Origin: a phage
Strand: one strand, 5' to 3'
Sequence record: PX441839.1
Length of the DNA stretch: 64,000 bases
Positions 1 to 35,461 of this stretch are shown one piece after another (the first letter of the stretch is position 1; each line of letters opens with the position of its first letter). The position numbers and the translations under genes are program-made. The notes under the pieces are model-generated. The model saw only the letters and a program-made list of their open reading frames with translations, did no database searches and was not told where the DNA came from.

Positions 1-768
1 CGCTTTGTCCTTTGTGCTGTTCAAACGTCGATAGCTCACCTGACCGCAACAAGAGGCAGAGATCCGCAGAGCTTCTTCCTCCGTCAGCATCACAGGGGTG
101 TCATTCTCATCAAGTACACAGTACCCTTCAAAGATGTGTTCATCCTCTCCCTCTCCGTCACCAAATCCGTAAACGTGGTCAACGTAAGGTGTGTGCCAAG
201 TACCCGTTTGTAGTAATTCAGGTTCGGAATTTTCCAGAGCCTCTTTCATGAGGCTAGCTAGGACCTCAATAGTTGGATCTGCATCTGCATCCACACGCAG
301 CCACAGGAAGTTATCCATTTCTGTTGTGGTCATCACAGTCTTCATCATCTGGAATGGCTCAATCAGTCGATTAGCGATCTGCTTGTGATACCCAGCATCA
401 TCAAAAGCTTGAGCAAAGTCACATGCTCGATATGCCGCCGCCGCCCATGCCTCTCGACCAGTTACCTTATTGCATCGATCGATTGTTACAAGAGAGTCGT
501 GCTCAACACCCTTGTCCTGCATACCTGGCTGGTTAGAACCAAAACGGACAGGCATTGCCATATTTTCTTTGATTAGCTTAATCATCGTTTTGATCGGCAC
601 AGCGCGGGATGACATAGCGTTACGACTGAATAAACGGTGCGTCATAAACTCACTGTGGATAATTCGAGGGTACGTTAACTCAAAAGTTGTAATTCGACCA
701 CCACGCTCTCCAATTGAATCAGCAATGATCTGAACTTTAATGTTTTCACGACTAAATACCTGACCCAT
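1..768 (-). CDS. thyX: flavin-dependent thymidylate synthase (ThyX-like), 3' end cut by window edge
   Basis: Open minus-strand frame from ATG at 766-768 to position 1 (no stop in window, so absent from ORF track); my translation MGQVFSRENIKVQIIADSIGERGGRITTFELTYPRIIHSEFMTHRLFSRNAMSSR contains a ThyX-type xHR-x7-S motif; start overlaps stop of upstream gene. Confidence 0.45.
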   Translation of the reverse strand, partial: MGQVFSRENIKVQIIADSIGERGGRITTFELTYPRIIHSEFMTHRLFSRNAMSSRAVPIKTMIKLIKENMAMPVRFGSNQPGMQDKGVEHDSLVTIDRCNKVTGREAWAAAAYRACDFAQAFDDAGYHKQIANRLIEPFQMMKTVMTTTEMDNFLWLRVDADADPTIEVLASLMKEALENSEPELLQTGTWHTPYVDHVYGFGDGEGEDEHIFEGYCVLDENDTPVMLTEEEALRISASCCGQVSYRRLNSTKDKA

Positions 769-1004
769 TATAACCCCTCTTCATTATATTTTAACATTTC
801 TGCCACAGTCGTTGGCAAACCACCGAGTTCAACTAACCAGTTTCCTCGTTCACCTACGCTTTTAACACTTTCAATACCTGTGTTACCTTGATCCTTAATT
901 TCCATAAGGACAGATAACACATCGAGTGAGTCACCTTCCATCCGTAACCAGCCATCGATGTATAAACCTTCCCACTCATCACCTTGGAAATATACGATCT
1001 TCAT
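768..1004 (-). CDS. hypothetical protein (78 aa)
   Basis: ORF track; co-oriented, stop overlaps thyX start. Confidence 0.4.
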   Translation of the reverse strand: MKIVYFQGDEWEGLYIDGWLRMEGDSLDVLSVLMEIKDQGNTGIESVKSVGERGNWLVELGGLPTTVAEMLKYNEEGL

Positions 1005-1186
1005 CTCATCTTCCTCATTCTGTAAGGAACCGCAACATTATGCCTTACTGCTAGGTATGTGTCAAACATTTCCTTACACATATCCCTTGTTACCTTAAAA
1101 GAGGCGAGGAGATCGCCACTCTCCTCACTATAAACCTCTACGTGTTCACCATACCTTACAACCCACCTTCCCTTTCCACACCTCAC
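1001..1186 (-). CDS. hypothetical protein (61 aa)
   Basis: ORF track; 4-nt overlaps with both neighbours. Confidence 0.35.
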   Translation of the reverse strand: MRCGKGRWVVRYGEHVEVYSEESGDLLASFKVTRDMCKEMFDTYLAVRHNVAVPYRMRKMR

Positions 1187-1791
1187 AGTGTTTCCTCAAG
1201 GAATTTTCCAATGTCTTCCCACTTGTAGCTTTCAAAATCGTACTTTACACGAGGGGCCACTTCCTGACTATACGGGGTCAAGAATTTAACTTTAATAACA
1301 TCATCACTAAACTGATTGAGGAAGTTATTACGGTCATCAATAATTACCCCTCCAGCAACACCAGCCTTAACCTTTGTGGCATAAAAACCAGACCCATCTG
1401 ATCCTTTGTCCAAGTCAAGGAACGGGAAGTGATATTTCAAGAATCTCACTTTACTGCTGAAATGGCCCTTTTTGCAGTAAGATACAAAACGGATCGGGTG
1501 CCCAGCGTCATGAAGGCGTTTTATTACCTCAACACAATTAGTGTACGGCTTTAACTTATCGTACAGGTACGGGTCTTCCCAAAACTCGTATGGCCCAATC
1601 TGCTTTTTACATGCCGATGGGAAGTATCGGGAAAGATTATAATCAAAGAACCCTTTTGTATCTCGGTCCTCTATCATCAATCCATAATCCGCCGGAGTCT
1701 TATACACATCTTCCATCCAATCCAGCCATGCATTACCAGAGTCAACTACCGTCAGATCCACGTCAACAAGAATGGCTACTTTATTTTGCAT
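1183..1791 (-). CDS. HAD-superfamily phosphatase, putative 5'-deoxynucleotidase
   Basis: N-terminal ILVDVDLTVVDS matches HAD motif I (DxDxT/V); 202 aa. Confidence 0.5.
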   Translation of the reverse strand: MQNKVAILVDVDLTVVDSGNAWLDWMEDVYKTPADYGLMIEDRDTKGFFDYNLSRYFPSACKKQIGPYEFWEDPYLYDKLKPYTNCVEVIKRLHDAGHPIRFVSYCKKGHFSSKVRFLKYHFPFLDLDKGSDGSGFYATKVKAGVAGGVIIDDRNNFLNQFSDDVIKVKFLTPYSQEVAPRVKYDFESYKWEDIGKFLEETL

Positions 1792-2428
1792 TTAGGGTGT
1801 CCTCCATGAAATTGATAATTTCTTGTGCCGTCTCTGACACTTGGCCTTCACAGTTAGTAATGTCTGTTTCGTAAGGCTGACATTTCCGAGGAAACTCGCT
1901 GGAATAGATATATCTCCGAGAGTCTCCAGAAAAATCATACTCAGTCCCATCCTCTTTGAAACGGTGGATTCGTACCAGGAGATAGTTATCGGCACCTACC
2001 TGATTTACAACTGGAACAGATTCTTCCACGAACCCACCATCAGATACTACAACTACAATCTTCCTCGTTTCTCCGTATAACTCTTTTGCTAAGTTTTCAA
2101 GTTTTTTGGCAAAAGCTTTACCAAAAACATCGTTTCCGAACATAGGCTTCATTACGTTCTCTGAACAGTGGATCATCCATTGCCGTGGGGAAACATTCTT
2201 TCCATTTATCTGCAAGAATGGAACAGGCGTCTCTTTGTATTCTCTCTCATATAAAGCATCCCACAGTTTTCGGGTGATACCAGAAATTCTAACAGCCGCC
2301 TCAAACAGAAGCTCTTTAAACTCCATGTGTACAACATGGTACTCATTTGGATCAAGAAGTTTTTCAATTTCCTGACAAATGGTGTCTTTACCTGCCTTAG
2401 GTGGTGCATTCAGGTTTACGATAATCAT
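1781..2428 (-). CDS. P-loop kinase, deoxynucleoside monophosphate kinase-like
   Basis: N-terminus MIIVNLNAPPKAGKDT resembles T4 gp1 dNMP kinase GVKRSGKDT P-loop. Confidence 0.5.
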   Translation of the reverse strand: MIIVNLNAPPKAGKDTICQEIEKLLDPNEYHVVHMEFKELLFEAAVRISGITRKLWDALYEREYKETPVPFLQINGKNVSPRQWMIHCSENVMKPMFGNDVFGKAFAKKLENLAKELYGETRKIVVVVSDGGFVEESVPVVNQVGADNYLLVRIHRFKEDGTEYDFSGDSRRYIYSSEFPRKCQPYETDITNCEGQVSETAQEIINFMEDTLNAK

Positions 2429-2489
2429 CTCTTTCTCCTCTCCAGAATGTGTTGACTATTATACGCAACTGTTGACATATGTCAATAAA

Positions 2490-2515
2490 AAACCGCCCCG
2501 AAGGGCGGTTAAAAT
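2490..2515 (-). terminator. rho-independent terminator
   Basis: hairpin ACCGCCC-CGAA-GGGCGGT followed by T-run on minus strand, just downstream of exonuclease gene. Confidence 0.55.
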
Positions 2516-3561
2516 TAGAGAATGTTCGCCAGCGTCTTTTTCATCGCTGCCTTCTCGCGAACGTTCTTACGATCACGGGCACAAGAACCGCAACCTTGAC
2601 AACGGTAAACCTTAAACTTAGACAGATAGGTCGTTGCAAATTTACCCTTCTCCTCAACCATCTGATCCGACCCACAACGAACACACCGCATTACTGACTG
2701 GTCAGGATGGAACAGAGAGATGTTCGGGTGCTTTTTCATCCAAGGACGAACAGTTAAATACAGTTCTTCCAGCGTTGGGATGTCACCAATGTTATATGTT
2801 TCCATCTCTTCAAATGCAGAAGGATCTCCCTCTACGCAACGTCGCCACAGGTTGAAACCCTCATGGGACAGTTTACGGCTATCCAGTTCAAAATAGTTAC
2901 AGGCGGCTTCCAGCGCATTAGAGGGTAATGAAAATGCCTCTTTAAGTGCTTTCAAAGTGTCAATAACAACATAAGGACTCGGTGGCTTCATGCCGTAAAA
3001 TGCGAAACGTTGGTTTGCCCAGCCTTGGTCAAATCGTGCATTATGGGCAATAAAGATATCACATTCGTCGAGAATCTTCCACAGGTCTTCAACAAGCTTA
3101 CGATCTGATCGATGATCTCGGCTAAACTCTTCTGGGTAATCTGTCAGCTTCCGGCTGAAAATTGAAGGGTTGTGCAACCATTTCCCCGCAAAGGTGAGCA
3201 TGTACGGTTCCATAATTACCTGCTTCGGCGCAATAAATTGCTTAAATCGTCCAAACGAGTAAGCGATAGATGGTGATGTTTCAACATCTCCCAAGAACAC
3301 TTTTGCACCTGCTGCCTTCTGCTTTACACTCTCGATAAACTCAAGATCCTCCGGCGCAAAAGAACTCTCCGCCGATCCCTCACTTACCTTTAAGAGATCT
3401 ACTACGTTGTCAACTTCATAACGGGCCATTTCCCGACGAAGCATGTTACGAACAGTTGATTCTTGGGATTCTTTACCCAAGGTACGGGCAACCTCACGCT
3501 GGGACAGGCCAGCCTTCATAAGTTCCAGGACCTGCTCAATAGTGAATGTTACATTTGCCAT
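2515..3561 (-). CDS. DEDDh-type 3'-5' exonuclease with N-terminal HTH and C-terminal zinc ribbon
   Basis: Exo I-like GDVETSP, Exo II-like IFIAHNARFDQGW; N-terminal LSQREVARTLG helix-turn-helix; C-terminal CVRCG...CQGCGSC. Confidence 0.5.
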   Translation of the reverse strand: MANVTFTIEQVLELMKAGLSQREVARTLGKESQESTVRNMLRREMARYEVDNVVDLLKVSEGSAESSFAPEDLEFIESVKQKAAGAKVFLGDVETSPSIAYSFGRFKQFIAPKQVIMEPYMLTFAGKWLHNPSIFSRKLTDYPEEFSRDHRSDRKLVEDLWKILDECDIFIAHNARFDQGWANQRFAFYGMKPPSPYVVIDTLKALKEAFSLPSNALEAACNYFELDSRKLSHEGFNLWRRCVEGDPSAFEEMETYNIGDIPTLEELYLTVRPWMKKHPNISLFHPDQSVMRCVRCGSDQMVEEKGKFATTYLSKFKVYRCQGCGSCARDRKNVREKAAMKKTLANIL

Positions 3562-10136: not shown

Positions 10137-10952
10137 TTAATATTTCTCCAGATTCGGTTCAAAGAAGGTGCAAGGCTTCATGATCTTACCTTTATCATCC
10201 TTAAACACAACACGGTTTCCGAACACCTCTCCACGGATACCTTTGTATCTACCTGCATGGTGCTTATTAAGAGATTCTGCCTCGATACTGATCATGTCAT
10301 CAACAGAAAGACCTCCCTTAACAACCCCATATCGAGAAGAAATGAATCCCTCTTTGAATTGTTCAATAGTTGGAATCTTTGACTCATTGGATGACAGAAC
10401 TTCCTCCAATACCGCCTCAATATCCAAATCCATATTGTGGAGAATTGTGCATATCGCACGGAAAGCGAAATGACTCTCCCCGAAACTAATGATCGATGAG
10501 GACAAAATACGAACAAGATCAACCAGAGAGTCGTGTGCCCACGTACCTGGGTCAAGGGCGATCTCTGAGTAATCAACGGCAGCATCAATTGCATCTTCAA
10601 TATTATCAAGAATCTCTGCGTCAACCTTAAGCTTCTTAAGGAAATCCCAGTAAGATACCACAACAAAAAGATCTGCGAGCGCGTCGATGGTTTCTTTCCG
10701 ATCTTTATTCAAAAGAGCATCTTTAAGCTCGTTAAGTTCCTCAACACAGAACGATTTTTGACGATCGATCATCTCTTCACTGTAGTCGTGGTTTTTTCGA
10801 GCGGTTAAGTTAAACTCGCGGACTCGTGAAAAAGCACTTTTTAAAATGTCTCGTTTTTCTTTTTTGGCAAAAGATTCAATAAAAGAATATTCTTGTGTCA
10901 CTTGATTCTCCTCTTCTTTGAAAGTAGGGCCATTATACATGACCAATTCCAT
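10137..10952 (-). CDS. MazG-like nucleoside triphosphate pyrophosphohydrolase
   Basis: VEELNELKDALLNKDRKETIDALADLFVV matches the MazG/HisE EEL.E..DA....E..D.L all-alpha NTP-PPase motif. Confidence 0.5.
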   Translation of the reverse strand: MELVMYNGPTFKEEENQVTQEYSFIESFAKKEKRDILKSAFSRVREFNLTARKNHDYSEEMIDRQKSFCVEELNELKDALLNKDRKETIDALADLFVVVSYWDFLKKLKVDAEILDNIEDAIDAAVDYSEIALDPGTWAHDSLVDLVRILSSSIISFGESHFAFRAICTILHNMDLDIEAVLEEVLSSNESKIPTIEQFKEGFISSRYGVVKGGLSVDDMISIEAESLNKHHAGRYKGIRGEVFGNRVVFKDDKGKIMKPCTFFEPNLEKY

Positions 10953-13936: not shown

Positions 13937-14173
13937 CTACTCCTCCTCTTTGATCCTTACCCATCCCATCTTAAGCATGTGCTGTTCAGAGGTGGGCCAT
14001 TTATTATCAACCACAGCTTGTAGCCACTCATGGTCTATACCATCGTGAACATATTCACTGTACAAGGTGTCTAATGTTTCCACATGAGCAACAGATGCCG
14101 CCCCTGTCCTTACCAAATACTCCCTCAGTTCAGTGACACGTCTGCTTAGTTTACAGCTATCACAATTGCACAT
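13937..14173 (-). CDS. hypothetical protein
   Basis: ORF track 13937..14293 trimmed to internal ATG to limit overlap. Confidence 0.3.
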   Translation of the reverse strand: MCNCDSCKLSRRVTELREYLVRTGAASVAHVETLDTLYSEYVHDGIDHEWLQAVVDNKWPTSEQHMLKMGWVRIKEEE

Positions 14174-14492
14174 TATCCCACTCCAACACAATGAAATGAC
14201 TAAAACGAGAAGTGTGTGACCAACGCATGATGGTAGCATCTGCCCAAGCGATCTTGTCAGGATCTCCGCTGACTTTGATGTGTATGTTGTCACAGTTTTG
14301 TCTTACATCTACAACTTTGAATGTGTAATCCATCCAATTCAGGCGTTTACAGAGATATATTAATTGCTCATTCATCTCGTAAGAGAATTTGTAGAACCTA
14401 GGCTTCTCTTGGGCCTTGTAGATCTCCTCTAGCTTCTCTATCTGCTCATCTGTCATCTCCAGACGGTGCAGATGGTACAAAGTGTCTTCCAT
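14160..14492 (-). CDS. hypothetical protein (110 aa)
   Basis: ORF track. Confidence 0.4.
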   Translation of the reverse strand: MEDTLYHLHRLEMTDEQIEKLEEIYKAQEKPRFYKFSYEMNEQLIYLCKRLNWMDYTFKVVDVRQNCDNIHIKVSGDPDKIAWADATIMRWSHTSRFSHFIVLEWDNVQL

Positions 14493-14579
14493 ATTACCTC
14501 CAAATCGTTAGCAGAAAGCCCCACAATCGATTTTATGGGGTTCAGGTATGCGATGGTATTCCAAACACCACAGAAGTCC

Positions 14580-14792
14580 TTACAGAGCTTCCTGTGCAGT
14601 CGTCCCTTCCTTACATTCAGGACAATACCATACCCCAAGACCGGGGTGTTCTGGATCTTCCACAAAATTGTCAGGTTTCTCATGTAAGACGATTGATTGT
14701 CCAATCGCCGCACCTGGTATTTTGTAGAAGCAGATATGAGGACCAACACCGTAATGTGGGTACTCCCCATCTTTGCATGTCTCACACATCAA
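14580..14792 (-). CDS. zinc-ribbon protein (70 aa)
   Basis: CETC...CPEC paired CxxC motifs; preferred over overlapping 14453..14785 frame. Confidence 0.4.
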   Translation of the reverse strand: MMCETCKDGEYPHYGVGPHICFYKIPGAAIGQSIVLHEKPDNFVEDPEHPGLGVWYCPECKEGTTAQEAL

Positions 14793-15070
14793 ATCATCTC
14801 CATCGTTATAAGTACGTTATCCAGATCGTCGGTATTTAACTGTAGATCAGGATTAATACTATCCTCCACACGATGATAAATCAACCCCTTTTCCACATAC
14901 TGATAAACCACATCATGATATTTTCCCAACATGGTTAACCAGTCACATTCGTAAACAGTGACCACACATACCTTTAGTCCCATCTTTGCTGATCTCCAAG
15001 CTTCCCTCACAGCCATGAGGTGAGCTAATTCCAGATCATCCATCTTATTTTTATTCTTATTCAATAACAT
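14789..15070 (-). CDS. hypothetical protein, first gene of leftward operon
   Basis: ORF track; ATG preceded by AAGAGG. Confidence 0.45.
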   Translation of the reverse strand: MLLNKNKNKMDDLELAHLMAVREAWRSAKMGLKVCVVTVYECDWLTMLGKYHDVVYQYVEKGLIYHRVEDSINPDLQLNTDDLDNVLITMEMI

Positions 15071-15109
15071 TATATAAACCTCTTATGATATCTTCGTCTA
15101 GTGCTGTGC

Positions 15110-15138
15110 AGTATACACCCTGTAGATCAGATGTCAAG
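15110..15138 (-). promoter_or_regulatory. sigma70-like promoter for leftward operon
   Basis: minus-strand TTGACA, about 16-17 nt spacer, TATACT, roughly 35 nt upstream of gene start at 15070. Confidence 0.5.
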
Positions 15139-15164
15139 ACTACCAATTCAAAAAATTTTCAGAT

Positions 15165-15300
15165 AATCTATGTATAAGATCTAAAGATCTATTATAAAAA
15201 GTTATAAGATCTTATTGTTTTTATAATTATTATGAATATAATGAATAATAATTATGGTTTTTATAATTTATGAGTGAAACGAATAAATTATAAGATCAAA
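15165..15300. repeat. AT-rich region with repeated TATAAGATC motifs and 12-bp palindrome ATAAGATCTTAT
   Basis: motif seen at about 15173, 15203 and 15288; putative operator sites between divergent operons. Confidence 0.45.
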
Positions 15301-15340
15301 TGGGGTTCTTATGAGCGTAGCGAATGGGTATAATCTTAAT
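15300..15340 (+). promoter_or_regulatory. promoter for rightward operon (-10 TATAAT)
   Basis: TGGGTATAAT at about 15325-15334, about 60 nt upstream of first plus-strand gene. Confidence 0.4.
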
Positions 15341-15392
15341 ATAAGTATTGTGTGCCTTTTGAGGCAACGACGTAGGTTGTGTGGAGGTGAGG

Positions 15393-15809
15393 ATGATTTT
15401 TCAGTTTGGTAACAGTTCAGTGGAGATTTCAGAAGATAGCTTCATGCAGATTCCTACCCACTGGGTAATGAACTTAAGCGGAGATGACTTAAAGAGGGCT
15501 TGCCTTCTTCGGTGGAGGTTCACATTCTTTGCTGATACGGGACTTTTCCCAGATGCATCCCTATGCTTCTATGAGTCTCAGCAGTCATTGTGTGACCTGT
15601 TTGGGATGTCAAAGTCTAGCCGGACAAAGGTGAGTGCTTGTCTAAAGAGGTTGGAGGCTGCTGGGGTAATATTTATACGCAGGGGCAAGTCAAGGGAGAG
15701 TGGGGAGTTGAAGCCACGGCATTACATTGTCCCCAATGACTCACTGCTTATTGAGAAGTACGGTATACGACCAGACTTGTGGGATGATAAGGAAATAATT
15801 GAAAAGTAA
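15393..15809 (+). CDS. hypothetical protein, possible winged-helix DNA-binding
   Basis: ORF track 15381 is a GTG; ATG at 15393 follows GGAGGTGA. Confidence 0.45.
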   Translation: MIFQFGNSSVEISEDSFMQIPTHWVMNLSGDDLKRACLLRWRFTFFADTGLFPDASLCFYESQQSLCDLFGMSKSSRTKVSACLKRLEAAGVIFIRRGKSRESGELKPRHYIVPNDSLLIEKYGIRPDLWDDKEIIEK

Positions 15810-15867
15810 GTTGACATCCGGTGTGGTGTTTAGTACAGTTTCGACATTGAAAATGAGAGGAGAGAAG

Positions 15868-16158
15868 ATGAATATTCAAGAACAGGTTAAAATAACTTTC
15901 GAAGACCTTGTGGAACTACATAAGAAACGAAAATATCAAAAGGGCCGAGAAAAGAAGGCAATGGAGGATGTGGTATTCTTTTCTAAAGATGGTCATGGAC
16001 TTTCCAAGAAAGAGGCAAACAGGAAGGTTGATGCAGCGTGGGCTACACAACGGGACGCTGTGAACATTGTGTCAGGTATTGATAAGCAGATTGAATATGA
16101 ACTGAATGCCATAGGGCAGATTATCAACTTTGTTGCGGAAAAGGAGAGTGATAAATGA
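15868..16158 (+). CDS. hypothetical protein
   Basis: ORF track 15799..16158; ATG (MNIQEQ) after GAGAGGAGAG. Confidence 0.4.
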   Translation: MNIQEQVKITFEDLVELHKKRKYQKGREKKAMEDVVFFSKDGHGLSKKEANRKVDAAWATQRDAVNIVSGIDKQIEYELNAIGQIINFVAEKESDK

Positions 16159-17069
16159 TTTCTTTACATCTCGATAACTTTAAAAGGGTTAAGCTTGAGT
16201 TTATGACGTTCAGCGGTGGAGAGCGTAACGTCCGTATAGGTGGACTGGATGTCGAAAAAGATGGTGTTCTTGAGTTTGCTGGATATGGGGAGGTTGACCA
16301 TCTCTCTCAACGTAAGTGGGAAAATTATCGTGTAACAGCACATATTCAAAGCTCAGATGATATCATGGATCTGTTACTTCTAAAGGATGCCATTGATCGT
16401 GTGGGCAATGGATGTTTGCGACGTGTATACTCAATCCTGCATCTTCCGTATCTCCCATATGCTCGACAAGACCGTGCAATGGTAAACGGGGAGGCGATCT
16501 CTGTTGTCGTTATGGCAAACCTGATTAACTCTCTTGAGTTTGATGCCGTGTGGATTGATGACCCGCATTCTGATGTTGGTCCGTCGCATATAAAAAACGC
16601 CGTAATTACCCCTCAGCATGAGCTTTTGCTGGACATGTGTAACAAAGATGATGTTCTTTCCGATGGAACAATCATTGTTGCACCTGATGCAGGTGCCATG
16701 AAAAAGGCAAGCAAGTTGGCTGAACTCGCTGATTTACCTCTCGGGACTGGTGGTAAACACAGGGATGTCAAGACAGGTAAGATTACAGGAACAACTTACA
16801 CAGGGCCAGATGTAAACGGTAAACGATGCCTGTTGGTAGACGATATTGCGGATGGCGCTGCCACATTTGTGTGTCTTGCAGAGAAACTAAAATCCCTGGG
16901 TGCAAAACAGGTTGATCTGTATGTAACGCACGGCATTTTCTCAAAAGGGATTGATGACCTTGAGCATATCGATAAGATTTATTCGGCATACCCCTGGAGA
17001 AAGAACGTTAAGTGGAAAAATGGAAAAGGTAAGCTAAATACGGTTGACATCGTAAGCTGGTTCGAGTAA
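16155..17069 (+). CDS. ribose-phosphate pyrophosphokinase (PRPP synthetase)-like enzyme
   Basis: YARQDR and LLVDDIADGAAT match Prs catalytic and PRPP-binding motifs; 304 aa; ATGA overlap with upstream gene. Confidence 0.65.
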   Translation: MISLHLDNFKRVKLEFMTFSGGERNVRIGGLDVEKDGVLEFAGYGEVDHLSQRKWENYRVTAHIQSSDDIMDLLLLKDAIDRVGNGCLRRVYSILHLPYLPYARQDRAMVNGEAISVVVMANLINSLEFDAVWIDDPHSDVGPSHIKNAVITPQHELLLDMCNKDDVLSDGTIIVAPDAGAMKKASKLAELADLPLGTGGKHRDVKTGKITGTTYTGPDVNGKRCLLVDDIADGAATFVCLAEKLKSLGAKQVDLYVTHGIFSKGIDDLEHIDKIYSAYPWRKNVKWKNGKGKLNTVDIVSWFE

Positions 17070-17125
17070 AGTACATTTTATCGGGAGGCGTGTTGCCTCC
17101 CACATACAACGAAGGAGAGTTACAT

Positions 17126-34810: not shown

Positions 34811-35461
34811 ATGGCAGTAGATCCAAACAGCAAGATTGAAGCTTGGACACCCATGATCAGAATTTCTGACATGAAATATCCAGTTTACCTGCGTGACTAT
34901 CTTGAGGAGTACAAAAACGTCAGTATCGGGTCTTTCGTGTGGGAAAGCGGGATGCGTGAGGTTGGATACTTTAAAGTCCACGATGTAGAAATCCCTATTG
35001 GGGATGTAGTCGTAGAAGGTGAACCAGCCTATAACGAGGAAGATGAACTTTGGTATAAGACTTGGATTGTCAGGGATTTCACCGAAGAGGAGATTGCTCA
35101 CAATCTCTATATGGCAAAAGAGGACGCTAAGTCTCAAGCTTATCGAATTTTTACCAATGATCAATCTTCCGGTGTTCTGGTAGATGGAGATCAGTTTAAT
35201 GTTGAGCCTCGTGAGATTACCAACTTAAGAGGTACACTCGAACTTGCCAATTTAGCAGGTGATGAGGAGAAGTTTCTTGTTCGCAAGGCAGACTTTTCAA
35301 TTCTGGAGCTTACTGCAAAAGAGACTGTTGAAAAGGTCACAAAAATAATTCTAGAGCAAGGAAAGTTACACCAAGCCCTTCTGAGCCATGTAAAAGAAAT
35401 CATGGATGCGGAAGACAGTGATTTAATCCCACCAACCCCACACACTTTCTTAGGAGAATAA
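34811..35461 (+). CDS. hypothetical protein (216 aa), possible fibre accessory protein
   Basis: ORF track; position after fibre gene. Confidence 0.45.
   Translation: MAVDPNSKIEAWTPMIRISDMKYPVYLRDYLEEYKNVSIGSFVWESGMREVGYFKVHDVEIPIGDVVVEGEPAYNEEDELWYKTWIVRDFTEEEIAHNLYMAKEDAKSQAYRIFTNDQSSGVLVDGDQFNVEPREITNLRGTLELANLAGDEEKFLVRKADFSILELTAKETVEKVTKIILEQGKLHQALLSHVKEIMDAEDSDLIPPTPHTFLGE

What the first reader, a model, noticed from the sequence alone, without database searches (positions are those of the whole stretch)
1..2428. Nucleotide-metabolism block: ThyX-like, HAD nucleotidase, dNMP kinase-like
A ThyX-like gene running off the window edge is followed by a HAD phosphatase and a dNMP-kinase-like protein; a MazG-like pyrophosphohydrolase lies at 10137..10952. 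Together these suggest phage reshaping of the dNTP pool, possibly supporting a modified nucleotide. The ThyX call rests on a variant motif (THR instead of RHR) and needs confirmation.
Basis: partly seen in the sequence, partly recalled or inferred. Interest (0 to 1): 0.35.

Follow-up and report, generated by a model that had tools for sequence, protein, structure and literature searches.

The report
Phage thymidylate/dNTP-supply operon, permuted ThyX
This is an ordinary, already-annotated phage operon for making DNA building blocks (a flavin-type thymidylate synthase, a nucleotide phosphatase and a nucleotide kinase); nothing supports an exotic DNA base, and the only unusual feature is that the thymidylate synthase belongs to a large phage subfamily whose chain is wired in a different order from the textbook enzyme.

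Summary
All genes lie on the minus strand. They are a ThyX-like gene (768..1, 256 of 338 codons, cut by the window edge), two small ORFs, an NT5C/HAD 5'-nucleotidase (1791..1183) and a T4-gp1-like dNMP kinase (2428..1781). A terminator and a perfect sigma-70 promoter sit just upstream. A MazG-like gene is at 10952..10137.

The window is 97.7% identical to Salmonella phage SSBI34 (Vequintavirinae), where the ThyX is already annotated and is followed by nrdA, nrdB and glutaredoxin.

The 'THR' motif is not a local oddity: T occurs in 124 of 128 diverse relatives. The weak profile scores arise because this phage subfamily is topologically permuted. The helix pair carrying the HxxPFEH histidine lies after the core, not before it.

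The modified-nucleotide idea is not supported. The same operon occurs in E. coli Vequintavirus phages reported as exceptionally restriction-sensitive, and I saw no base-modification genes apart from adenine methyltransferases.

Verdict: a known, ordinary dNTP-supply module with a structurally interesting but uncharacterised ThyX subfamily.

The parts
1..768 (-). 5' 768 nt (codons 1-256 of 338) of a ThyX-type flavin-dependent thymidylate synthase gene of the permuted 'THR' phage subfamily. It is cut by the window edge.
604..642 (-). ThyX motif region T43-H44-R45-L-F-S48-R-N50-A-M-S53-S54-R55. This is the canonical RHRx7S motif with Thr in place of the first Arg.
   Evidence: Direct reading. Column counts T 124/128, H 128/128, S53 127/128, R55 128/128. 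Aligned to T. maritima residues 78-90.
295..312 (-). N153-F-L-W-L-R158, equivalent to T. maritima N169...R174 (flavin and uracil contacts).
   Evidence: HMM alignment to 1O26-type chains. N153 and R158 are invariant in 128 sequences.
768..1004 (-). 78-aa ORF of unknown function inside the operon. Its stop codon overlaps the ThyX start codon by 1 nt.
   Evidence: ORF list. PHROG_19048, unknown function, 3e-6. No Pfam hit.
1001..1186 (-). 61-aa ORF of unknown function inside the operon. It shares 4-nt overlaps with both neighbours.
   Evidence: ORF list. PHROG_4903, unknown function, 7e-26.
1183..1791 (-). HAD-superfamily 5'(3')-deoxyribonucleotidase-like protein (NT5C family), 202 aa.
   Evidence: Pfam NT5C 5.4e-8, 33.3 bits above GA. 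Family profile hits human mdN 1MH9 at 1.5e-8, and cdN. D10, D12, S104, K142 and D153 are invariant and D152 is at least 90% conserved.
1781..2428 (-). P-loop NMP-kinase-fold protein, T4 gp1-like dNMP kinase candidate, 215 aa.
   Evidence: PHROG_139 5e-44. AF2 pLDDT 95.8. Foldseek top hits are archaeal adenylate kinase 6LN3 and T4 dNMP kinase 1DEK (TMq 0.55). G13-K14-D15 is invariant.
2458..2485 (-). Perfect sigma-70 consensus promoter TTGACA-16 nt-TATAAT, 30 nt upstream of the kinase ATG.
   Evidence: Scan gives 12 of 12 matches. Sequence read.
2491..2510 (-). Intrinsic terminator hairpin AACCGCCC-TTCG-GGGCGGTT followed by a T-run. It closes the upstream exonuclease gene.
10137..10952 (-). MazG-like all-alpha NTP pyrophosphohydrolase candidate, 271 aa. 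It is 7.7 kb away and not part of the same operon.
   Evidence: Pfam PRA-PH 8e-6, 26.6 bits above GA, residues 57-98 only. PHROG_671 4e-24. E71-E72-x-x-E75...E87-x-x-D90 read from the translation. No PDB sequence hit.

Best explanation
The region is the promoter-proximal part of a conserved Vequintavirinae operon that supplies deoxynucleotides, above all dTTP, for phage DNA replication.

Shown here:
- A consensus sigma-70 promoter at 2485-2458 (-) lies upstream of tightly packed, overlapping ORFs on the minus strand.
- Their order is a T4-gp1-like dNMP kinase, an NT5C-type HAD 5'-nucleotidase, two small unknown ORFs, and a ThyX-fold protein.
- In the near-identical phage SSBI34 the run continues with two small ORFs, nrdA, nrdB and glutaredoxin.

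Inferred from the named families:
- Ribonucleotide reductase makes dNDPs.
- ThyX uses FAD, NAD(P)H and methylene-tetrahydrofolate to methylate dUMP to dTMP. The dUMP probably comes from the host, because no dCMP/dCTP deaminase or dUTPase is annotated.
- The kinase phosphorylates dTMP, and dNMPs released from degraded host DNA, to dNDPs.
- The nucleotidase opposes the kinase to trim or balance the pyrimidine dNMP pool, as mdN and cdN do in human cells.
- The distant MazG-like enzyme is a separate housekeeping NTP pyrophosphohydrolase.

The ThyX belongs to a very large phage subfamily that is a topological permutant of canonical ThyX. The alpha1-alpha2-HxxPFEH segment follows the catalytic core instead of preceding it. 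In this subfamily Thr replaces the Arg that faces flavin N1 in T. maritima, and Ala replaces the gating Tyr91. The residues equivalent to H53, S30, H79, S88, R90, R147, N169 and R174 remain invariant or nearly so. The most likely product is therefore still dTMP.
For: Identity and context:
- 97.7% nucleotide identity to SSBI34, with ThyX, RNR alpha and beta and glutaredoxin annotated alongside.
- The same gene order (P-loop NTPase, HAD homologue, small ORF, thymidylate synthase, two ORFs, NrdA, NrdB, Grx) occurs in E. coli phage JohannBauhin/Bas53. Its kinase and HAD orthologues are 46% and 48% identical.

ThyX:
- Pfam Thy1 above the gathering score.
- PHROG_85 at 4e-109.
- AF2 pLDDT 95.4, pTM 0.92.
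- The Foldseek top 50 are all T. maritima ThyX chains.
- Invariant across 128 relatives: H44, R55, R134, N153, R158, S245, H270.

Permutation:
- The family profile matches T. maritima ThyX in three non-collinear pieces.
- An artificial circular permutant of the T. maritima sequence aligns as one 121-column domain at 26.9 bits, against 14.5 bits for the best native domain.
- In P0245, Pfam places Thy1 profile positions 15-58 at the C-terminus.

Functional importance of the two motifs: inteins in relatives sit inside or next to the THR motif and immediately after H270.

Nucleotidase. Kinase. Promoter and terminator.
Against: - I found no biochemical data for any member of this ThyX subfamily, so dTMP synthesis is inferred, not shown.
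- The protein fails the NCBIfam equivalog cut-off by a wide margin (32.1 bits against 87.9).
- It lacks R78, which stabilises reduced flavin in T. maritima, and Y91 (PMC11940539). Positions equivalent to R74, Q75 and E86 also differ, so cofactor handling or phosphate binding may differ.
- A nucleotidase next to a kinase looks futile and has no tested rationale here.
- The kinase has no Pfam hit and only a weak sequence match to 1DEK (E 0.34). Its substrate range is unknown.
- Co-transcription is inferred from spacing and one promoter match. A second, 11-of-12 promoter-like site lies at 1065-1037.
Confidence: 0.8

Rival explanations
1. The ThyX-like enzyme makes a non-canonical C5-substituted pyrimidine nucleotide, for example 5-hydroxymethyl-dUMP formed when water captures the exocyclic-methylene intermediate. 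The nucleotidase, kinase and MazG-like enzyme then remove the canonical nucleotide and phosphorylate the new one, so the phage DNA carries a modified base.
For: - The subfamily has lost R78 and Y91 and has altered positions equivalent to R74, Q75 and E86. It has gained its own invariant residues (G82, M83, K129, H192, P194, R329).
- From my own knowledge: a phosphatase + kinase + pyrophosphohydrolase set is the pattern seen in phages with dU or 5-hmdU DNA, and 5-hmdUMP has been trapped from ThyX reactions.
Against: - The same operon is present in BASEL Vequintavirus phages. That group is reported as exceptionally susceptible to restriction-modification systems, with no effective protection (PMC8594841).
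- The subfamily occurs in 1035 phage records of very different lineages, including ICP1, Pseudomonas, Klebsiella and Caulobacter phages. I know of no thymidine replacement in any of them.
- The residues equivalent to T. maritima R90, R147 and R174 are invariant.
- No glycosyl-, aminoacyl- or kinase-type hypermodification genes are annotated in bases 1-131,000 of SSBI34.
- The MazG-like gene is 7.7 kb away, in a different gene cluster.
Confidence: 0.07
2. The HAD and kinase-like proteins do not act on deoxynucleotides. For example, they could be a sugar-phosphate or RNA-end phosphatase and a different small-molecule kinase. On this reading their position next to ThyX and RNR is historical rather than functional.
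For: - The kinase-like protein has no Pfam or NCBIfam hit.
- Its fold matches also include dephospho-CoA kinase, phosphomevalonate kinase and chloramphenicol phosphotransferase, at E-values about 2.5- to 65-fold weaker than the top hit.
- The PHROG family of the HAD protein (phrog_420) is labelled 'unknown function'.
Against: - Above the 1e-5 level the HAD family profile hits 5'(3')-deoxyribonucleotidases, plus one designed protein, OR51.
- The kinase matches the dNMP-kinase PHROG at 5e-44, and T4 gp1 has the highest TM-score normalised to the query.
- The two genes overlap each other and keep their position upstream of ThyX and RNR across genera that are only 46-48% identical.
Confidence: 0.1
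3. The ThyX-like protein is a catalytically dead relic, or has a purely structural or regulatory role.
For: Very low scores against curated ThyX models and loss of the first Arg of the signature motif.
Against: - Fourteen columns are invariant, including seven that align to known ThyX active-site residues, across 128 sequences down to 37% identity.
- Inteins with homing endonucleases are inserted exactly at these motifs. That is typical of essential active sites.
- The low scores are explained by the permuted topology.
Confidence: 0.03

Closest known systems
Canonical flavin-dependent thymidylate synthase ThyX (Thermotoga maritima TM0449, PDB 1O26/5CHP; Pfam PF02511, TIGR02170)
   Different: - The chain order is permuted: the alpha1-alpha2-HxxPFEH module lies after the core, not before it.
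- The protein is about 120 residues longer, with a beta-rich insertion (residues 185-229) and a C-terminal extension carrying invariant R329.
- Substitutions: R78 to T, Y91 to A, E86 to A or S, R74 to A or S, Q75 to E.
- It scores 32 bits against a TIGR02170 cut-off of 87.9.
- I found no biochemical characterisation.
PolB, ThyX paralogue of polyoxin biosynthesis (Streptomyces cacaoi, PDB 4P5A), a UMP/dUMP C5-methylase
   Different: PolB sits in an antibiotic biosynthesis cluster, not a phage replication module. It is not a closer structural match than canonical ThyX.
Phage T4 gp1 deoxynucleoside monophosphate kinase (PDB 1DEK)
   Same: P-loop NMP-kinase fold, second-best Foldseek hit with the highest query-normalised TM-score (0.55). 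The N-terminal 'xxGKDT' P-loop is shared. Both fall in PHROG_139 (5e-44). Both have the genomic role of a phage dNTP-supply gene.
   Different: Only 15% identity, with a profile E-value to 1DEK of 0.34. The P-loop is preceded by 'NAPP' rather than 'SGV'. The substrate range is unknown; T4 gp1 takes hm-dCMP, dGMP and dTMP (from my own knowledge).
Human mitochondrial and cytosolic 5'(3')-deoxyribonucleotidases mdN and cdN (PDB 1MH9, 2I7D; Pfam NT5C PF06941)
   Same: Same family by profile (1.5e-8 to mdN; Pfam above GA). The HAD motifs are present: DxDxT (D10, D12), S104, K142 and D152-D153-R.
   Different: The substrate preference is untested; mdN and cdN prefer dUMP and dTMP (from my own knowledge). 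The cap region (residues about 15-75) is divergent.
MazG / PRA-PH all-alpha NTP pyrophosphohydrolases
   Same: Pfam PRA-PH above GA, and an EExxE...ExxD acidic motif in residues 57-98. PHROG_671.
   Different: Only 42 of 271 residues match the Pfam model. The remaining roughly 170 residues are unassigned, and there is no PDB sequence hit.

Membership tests
ThyX (flavin-dependent thymidylate synthase, Pfam PF02511 / TIGR02170) | ThyX fold | tested here: met
ThyX (flavin-dependent thymidylate synthase, Pfam PF02511 / TIGR02170) | Score above the Pfam Thy1 gathering threshold | tested here: met
   28.8 bits for the full-length homologue and 25.1 bits for the window fragment, against 24.8. This is marginal, and only profile positions 60-190 align.
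ThyX (flavin-dependent thymidylate synthase, Pfam PF02511 / TIGR02170) | Score above the NCBIfam TIGR02170 equivalog cut-off | tested here: not met
   32.1 bits against a cut-off of 87.9.
ThyX (flavin-dependent thymidylate synthase, Pfam PF02511 / TIGR02170) | Signature motif RHRx7S (Myllykallio 2002, as quoted in PMC2826268) | tested here: not met
   The sequence is THRx7S. H, R and S are present, but the first Arg is Thr. Thr is found in 124 of 128 relatives and R or K in 4. This is a one-residue deviation that is the norm for the subfamily.
ThyX (flavin-dependent thymidylate synthase, Pfam PF02511 / TIGR02170) | Other conserved active-site residues (T. maritima S30, H53, R90, R147, N169, R174) | tested here: met
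   S245, H270, R55, R134, N153 and R158 are each 128 of 128. S245 is encoded in the window. H270 lies outside it and was seen in SSBI34 only.
ThyX (flavin-dependent thymidylate synthase, Pfam PF02511 / TIGR02170) | Canonical order of secondary-structure elements (alpha1-alpha2-HxxPFEH before the RHR core) | tested here: not met
   The family profile aligns to T. maritima ThyX in a non-collinear order. A circularly permuted T. maritima sequence aligns collinearly. Pfam N-terminal profile positions are found at the C-terminus of P0245.
ThyX (flavin-dependent thymidylate synthase, Pfam PF02511 / TIGR02170) | FAD binding, homotetramer, and dUMP to dTMP activity with CH2-THF and NAD(P)H | not testable with these tools
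   This needs purified protein or thyA complementation. I found no paper on this subfamily.
NT5C 5'(3')-deoxyribonucleotidase (HAD superfamily, Pfam PF06941) | Profile membership | tested here: met
   Pfam NT5C 33.3 bits against 24.8. The family profile hits mdN 1MH9 at 1.5e-8, cdN, and the putative bacterial 5'(3')-deoxyribonucleotidase 3BWV.
NT5C 5'(3')-deoxyribonucleotidase (HAD superfamily, Pfam PF06941) | HAD catalytic motifs I-IV (DxDx[TV]; S/T; K; DD) | tested here: met
   D10-V-D12-L-T, S104, K142 and D152-D153. All are invariant or at least 90% conserved in 43 sequences. The 'TxxK' and 'IDDR' stretches align to mdN.
NT5C 5'(3')-deoxyribonucleotidase (HAD superfamily, Pfam PF06941) | Deoxyribonucleoside monophosphate specificity | not testable with these tools
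   Requires an enzyme assay.
T4 gp1-type dNMP kinase (PHROG_139; PDB 1DEK) | P-loop NMP-kinase fold with Walker A GK[DST] | tested here: met
   G13-K14-D15-T16, with G13, K14 and D15 invariant. The Foldseek top hits are adenylate kinases and 1DEK.
T4 gp1-type dNMP kinase (PHROG_139; PDB 1DEK) | Sequence-profile membership | tested here: inconclusive
   PHROG_139 at 5e-44. However, there is no Pfam or NCBIfam hit, and the profile-to-1DEK match has E 0.34 and covers the P-loop region only.
T4 gp1-type dNMP kinase (PHROG_139; PDB 1DEK) | dNMP phosphorylation | not testable with these tools
   Requires an enzyme assay.
MazG-like NTP pyrophosphohydrolase | Profile membership and acidic EExxE...ExxD metal-binding motif | tested here: met
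   PRA-PH 26.6 bits against 21.3, residues 57-98 only. PHROG_671 4e-24. E71, E72, E75, E87 and D90 read from the translation.

The most novel reading that the evidence does not exclude
The 'THR-type' phage ThyX is a distinct, topologically permuted enzyme class. It is found in about a thousand sequenced phages and about 4,900 clusters at 50% identity. Its remodelled flavin and phosphate pocket (no R78, no Y91, new invariant K129, H192 and R329) could give it chemistry that differs from textbook ThyX. That might mean a different product such as 5-hydroxymethyl-dUMP, a different nucleotide substrate, or a different reductant or one-carbon donor. If so, a widespread phage 'thymidylate synthase' annotation would be wrong or incomplete.
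Probability: 0.08. Interest if true: 0.65.

Novelty: already known. Interest (0 to 1): 0.2.

Why it matters
As a genome feature it matters little. The block is the standard dNTP-supply module of rV5-like phages and is already annotated in the near-identical GenBank record.

Two points have some value.

1. It clears up why this very common phage ThyX scores so poorly against curated models. The cause is a permuted chain order, not decay. This matters for annotation pipelines and for anyone using the RHR motif as a filter.

2. The subfamily lacks the Arg that stabilises reduced flavin and the gating Tyr of the studied enzymes, and I found no biochemical work on it. It would be a cheap and informative target for ThyX enzymologists. 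Its inteins mark the two motifs as critical.

Tried and rejected
- Single-sequence phmmer of the ThyX-like, kinase-like, HAD and MazG-like proteins against PDB sequences gave only chance-level hits. Family profiles were needed.
- The kinase family profile against PDB reached only E 0.04-0.3, for the P-loop region alone. The fold search was more informative.
- I tested whether the N-terminal beta-hairpin (residues 1-36) and the internal beta-rich insertion (183-232) are duplicates, which would point to permutation by tandem duplication. hhalign found no similarity (probability below 1%). The origin of the permutation stays open.
- I looked for covariation between position 43 (T against R or K) and other basic residues that might compensate. 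There was none, because the candidate residues are invariant.
- I suspected that the 520-680-aa relatives were fusions with another nucleotide enzyme, which could have indicated the substrate. They are inteins with HNH or LAGLIDADG endonucleases.
- The SSBI34 label 'ribulose-phosphate 3-epimerase' for the kinase-like protein was rejected: TIGR01163 scores 13.5 bits against a cut-off of 212.6.
- Literature searches found no description of a permuted or THR-type ThyX. The library covers open-access papers only, so this is absence of evidence.
- The predicted coordinates could not be downloaded, so I could not inspect which residues line the flavin and dUMP pocket in the model.
Full report
**What is there.** All long ORFs in the first 13 kb of the window run on the minus strand (negative GC skew). 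Read in the direction of transcription, the region holds:
- an intrinsic terminator hairpin at 2510-2491, closing a DnaQ-like exonuclease gene (3561..2515);
- a perfect sigma-70 consensus promoter, TTGACA-16-TATAAT, at 2485-2458;
- a 215-aa P-loop protein (2428..1781);
- a 202-aa HAD protein (1791..1183, overlapping the previous gene by 11 nt);
- a 61-aa ORF (1186..1001) and a 78-aa ORF (1004..768), with 4-nt and 1-nt overlaps;
- a ThyX-like ORF that starts at 768 and runs off the window at base 1 after 256 codons.

**Where it comes from.** The first 8 kb are 97.7% identical to Salmonella phage SSBI34, a 141-kb member of the Vequintavirinae. In that record the ThyX gene is complete (338 aa) and annotated 'thymidylate synthase, flavin-dependent'. 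It is followed by two small ORFs, ribonucleotide reductase alpha and beta subunits and a glutaredoxin. The published description of SSBI34 also names it thyX (PMC8879037). The window's 256 residues are 98% identical to the SSBI34 protein.

**Is it really a ThyX?** Curated sequence models give a weak answer.
- Pfam Thy1 scores 28.8 bits against a gathering score of 24.8 and aligns only residues 28-183 to profile positions 60-190.
- The NCBIfam equivalog TIGR02170 scores 32 bits against a cut-off of 87.9.
- phmmer finds nothing in the PDB.
- PHROG_85 ('thymidylate synthase') matches at 4e-109.

**Why the sequence scores are so low: a permuted topology.** A profile of the 128 relatives hits T. 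maritima ThyX in three pieces whose order is not collinear:
- profile 218-260 aligns with native residues 20-60 (helices alpha1 and alpha2 and the H53-x-T-P-F-E-H motif);
- profile 28-57 aligns with residues 61-90 (the RHR motif);
- profile 139-178 aligns with residues 160-199.

In all 220 sequences where both motifs could be found by pattern, the HxSPxEH motif lies after the THR motif. So in this subfamily the module that supplies the folate- and flavin-stacking histidine follows the catalytic core. The core and that module are separated by a beta-rich insertion (residues about 185-229). The module is followed by a roughly 60-residue C-terminal extension.

I tested whether the N-terminal hairpin and the insertion are duplicates, which would be the signature of permutation by tandem duplication. 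No similarity was found. Five literature searches found no description of this arrangement. That only covers an open-access library.

**The THR motif.** Thr is the norm for the subfamily: T in 124 of 128 sequences, R or K in 4.

Invariant or nearly invariant residues, with their T. maritima equivalents in brackets:

| This subfamily | T. maritima | Conservation |
|---|---|---|
| H44 | H79 | 128/128 |
| R45 | R80 | 107/128 |
| S48 | S83 | 118/128 |
| N50 | N85 | 123/128 |
| S53 | S88 | 127/128 |
| R55 | R90 | 128/128 |
| R134 | R147 | 128/128 |
| N153 | N169 | 128/128 |
| R158 | R174 | 128/128 |
| S245 | S30 | 128/128 |
| H270 | H53 | 128/128 |
| E275 | E58 | 123/128 |

Positions that differ:
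- R78 to T43
- Y91 to A56 (128/128)
- E86 to A or S
- R74 to A or S
- Q75 to E40

In T. maritima, R78 points at N1/C2=O of the reduced flavin, and Y91 hydrogen-bonds H53 to gate the folate site (PMC11940539). Flavin stabilisation and gating must therefore be handled differently in this subfamily. Its own invariant residues (R35, K129, H192, R329) may take over; this is inference, because I could not inspect the coordinates. The residues that by my recollection hold and activate the uracil nucleotide in T. maritima ThyX (R90, R147, R174) are intact. That is the main reason to expect dUMP as the substrate and dTMP as the product.

**Independent sign of functional importance.** The 520-680-aa relatives are not fusions to other enzymes. 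They carry inteins with HNH or LAGLIDADG homing endonucleases. The inteins are inserted inside the THR motif ('MTHR|C...VVHN|CFSRNA'), just before it (after H38), or directly after H270 ('...H|CYDE...'). It is established knowledge that inteins tend to occupy conserved active-site motifs of essential enzymes.

**The other two genes.**
- HAD protein. It passes the Pfam NT5C threshold (33.3 bits against 24.8). A profile of 43 relatives hits human mitochondrial and cytosolic 5'(3')-deoxyribonucleotidases (1MH9 at 1.5e-8) and a putative bacterial 5'(3')-deoxyribonucleotidase, 3BWV. The four HAD motifs are conserved: D10-x-D12-x-T, S104, K142 and D152-D153.
- Kinase-like protein. It has no Pfam or NCBIfam hit, but it matches PHROG_139 'deoxynucleoside monophosphate kinase' at 5e-44. 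It has an invariant G13-K14-D15 P-loop and conserved Arg residues (R153, R156, R171) that could form a lid. Its model (pLDDT 95.8) is closest to an archaeal adenylate kinase and to T4 dNMP kinase 1DEK, which has the highest query-normalised TM-score, 0.55.
- The SSBI34 label 'ribulose-phosphate 3-epimerase' for the kinase-like protein rests on a 13.5-bit match against a cut-off of 212.6 and is wrong.

**How it most likely works.** Shown: the gene identities at family or fold level, the tight operon-like packing behind a consensus promoter, and conservation of the order kinase, HAD, small ORF, ThyX, two ORFs, NrdA, NrdB, Grx in E. coli phage JohannBauhin/Bas53. Its orthologues are 46%, 48% and 54% identical.

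Inferred from the named families:
- RNR produces dNDPs.
- ThyX methylates dUMP to dTMP. The dUMP is presumably host-made, since no dCMP/dCTP deaminase or dUTPase is annotated in the parts of SSBI34 that I read.
- The kinase raises dTMP and salvaged dNMPs to dNDPs.
- The nucleotidase provides the opposing arm of a substrate cycle or removes surplus pyrimidine dNMPs.
- The MazG-like gene lies 7.7 kb away among unrelated small genes and is better seen as a separate housekeeping enzyme. Only 42 of its 271 residues match the PRA-PH model.

**The modified-base hypothesis.** I find no support for it.
[quoted passage not shown] One of those phages carries the same operon.
- The THR-type ThyX is present in 1035 phage records from many lineages: Escherichia 285, Pseudomonas 243, Vibrio 89 (including ICP1), and also Klebsiella, Caulobacter and Campylobacter.
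- The parts of the SSBI34 record I read (1-131,000 of 141,095 bases) list no hypermodification enzymes, only N6-adenine methyltransferases.

This is indirect evidence, because 5-hmdU does not block every restriction enzyme. I leave about 7-8% for a non-canonical product.

**Verdict.** The gene calls are correct. The THR 'variant' is a subfamily hallmark explained together with a chain permutation. The modified-nucleotide interpretation is not supported. The block is already annotated in a near-identical phage and is ordinary. The permuted, uncharacterised ThyX subfamily is a modest point of specialist interest.

Noticed in passing
Relatives P0136, P0137, P0139, P0156, P0168, P0203, P0214, P0239, P0245 (homologues of window 1-768, minus strand): Many 520-680-aa homologues of the ThyX-like protein carry inteins with HNH or LAGLIDADG homing endonucleases. 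The inteins are inserted inside or next to the THR motif (after R45 or after H38) or directly after the invariant His270 of the HASPFEH motif.
   Followed up: partly
window 1781-2428 (-), equivalent to SSBI34 QYC52457: The GenBank record of the nearest phage names this P-loop kinase-like protein 'ribulose-phosphate 3-epimerase'. The only support is a 13.5-bit TIGR01163 match against a cut-off of 212.6, so the name is a misannotation.
   Followed up: yes
window 16155-17069 (+) and 17090-18916 (+): Two adjacent genes: a ribose-phosphate pyrophosphokinase-like protein (Pribosyltran, Pribosyl_synth) and an NAPRTase-family protein. From memory, this pair resembles the phage NAD+ reconstitution pathway NARP1 (Adps + Namat), which counters NAD-depleting defence systems.
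   Followed up: no
window 2458-2510 (-): A strong terminator hairpin (AACCGCCC-TTCG-GGGCGGTT plus a T-run) is directly fused to a perfect TTGACA-16-TATAAT promoter, with the T-run overlapping the -35 box. I did not check whether this terminator-promoter cassette recurs elsewhere in the genome.
   Followed up: partly
window 768-1004 (-) and 1001-1186 (-): Two small ORFs (78 and 61 aa; PHROG_19048 and PHROG_4903, both of unknown function) are wedged between the nucleotidase and ThyX with overlapping start and stop codons. The E. coli relative Bas53 has a single 66-aa ORF at this position.
   Followed up: no
window 2515-3561 (-): The upstream DnaQ-like 3'-5' exonuclease (RNase_T, PHROG_403 'DNA polymerase exonuclease subunit') has an N-terminal helix-turn-helix region (weak HTH_38 and ParB-HTH hits). 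It also has four C-terminal cysteines (CxxC...CxxC) that suggest a zinc ribbon.
   Followed up: no
window about 14000-16000 and about 60000: The GC skew changes sign, which coincides with switches in coding strand between the minus-strand early/metabolic genes and the plus-strand NAD-salvage, terminase and structural genes.
   Followed up: no
window about 13939-14175 (-), equivalent to SSBI34 35015-35251: The SSBI34 record and paper call a 78-aa product here 'queuosine biosynthesis protein QueD'. The overlapping window ORF 13937-14293 has no Pfam hit, so that label looks over-interpreted.
   Followed up: partly
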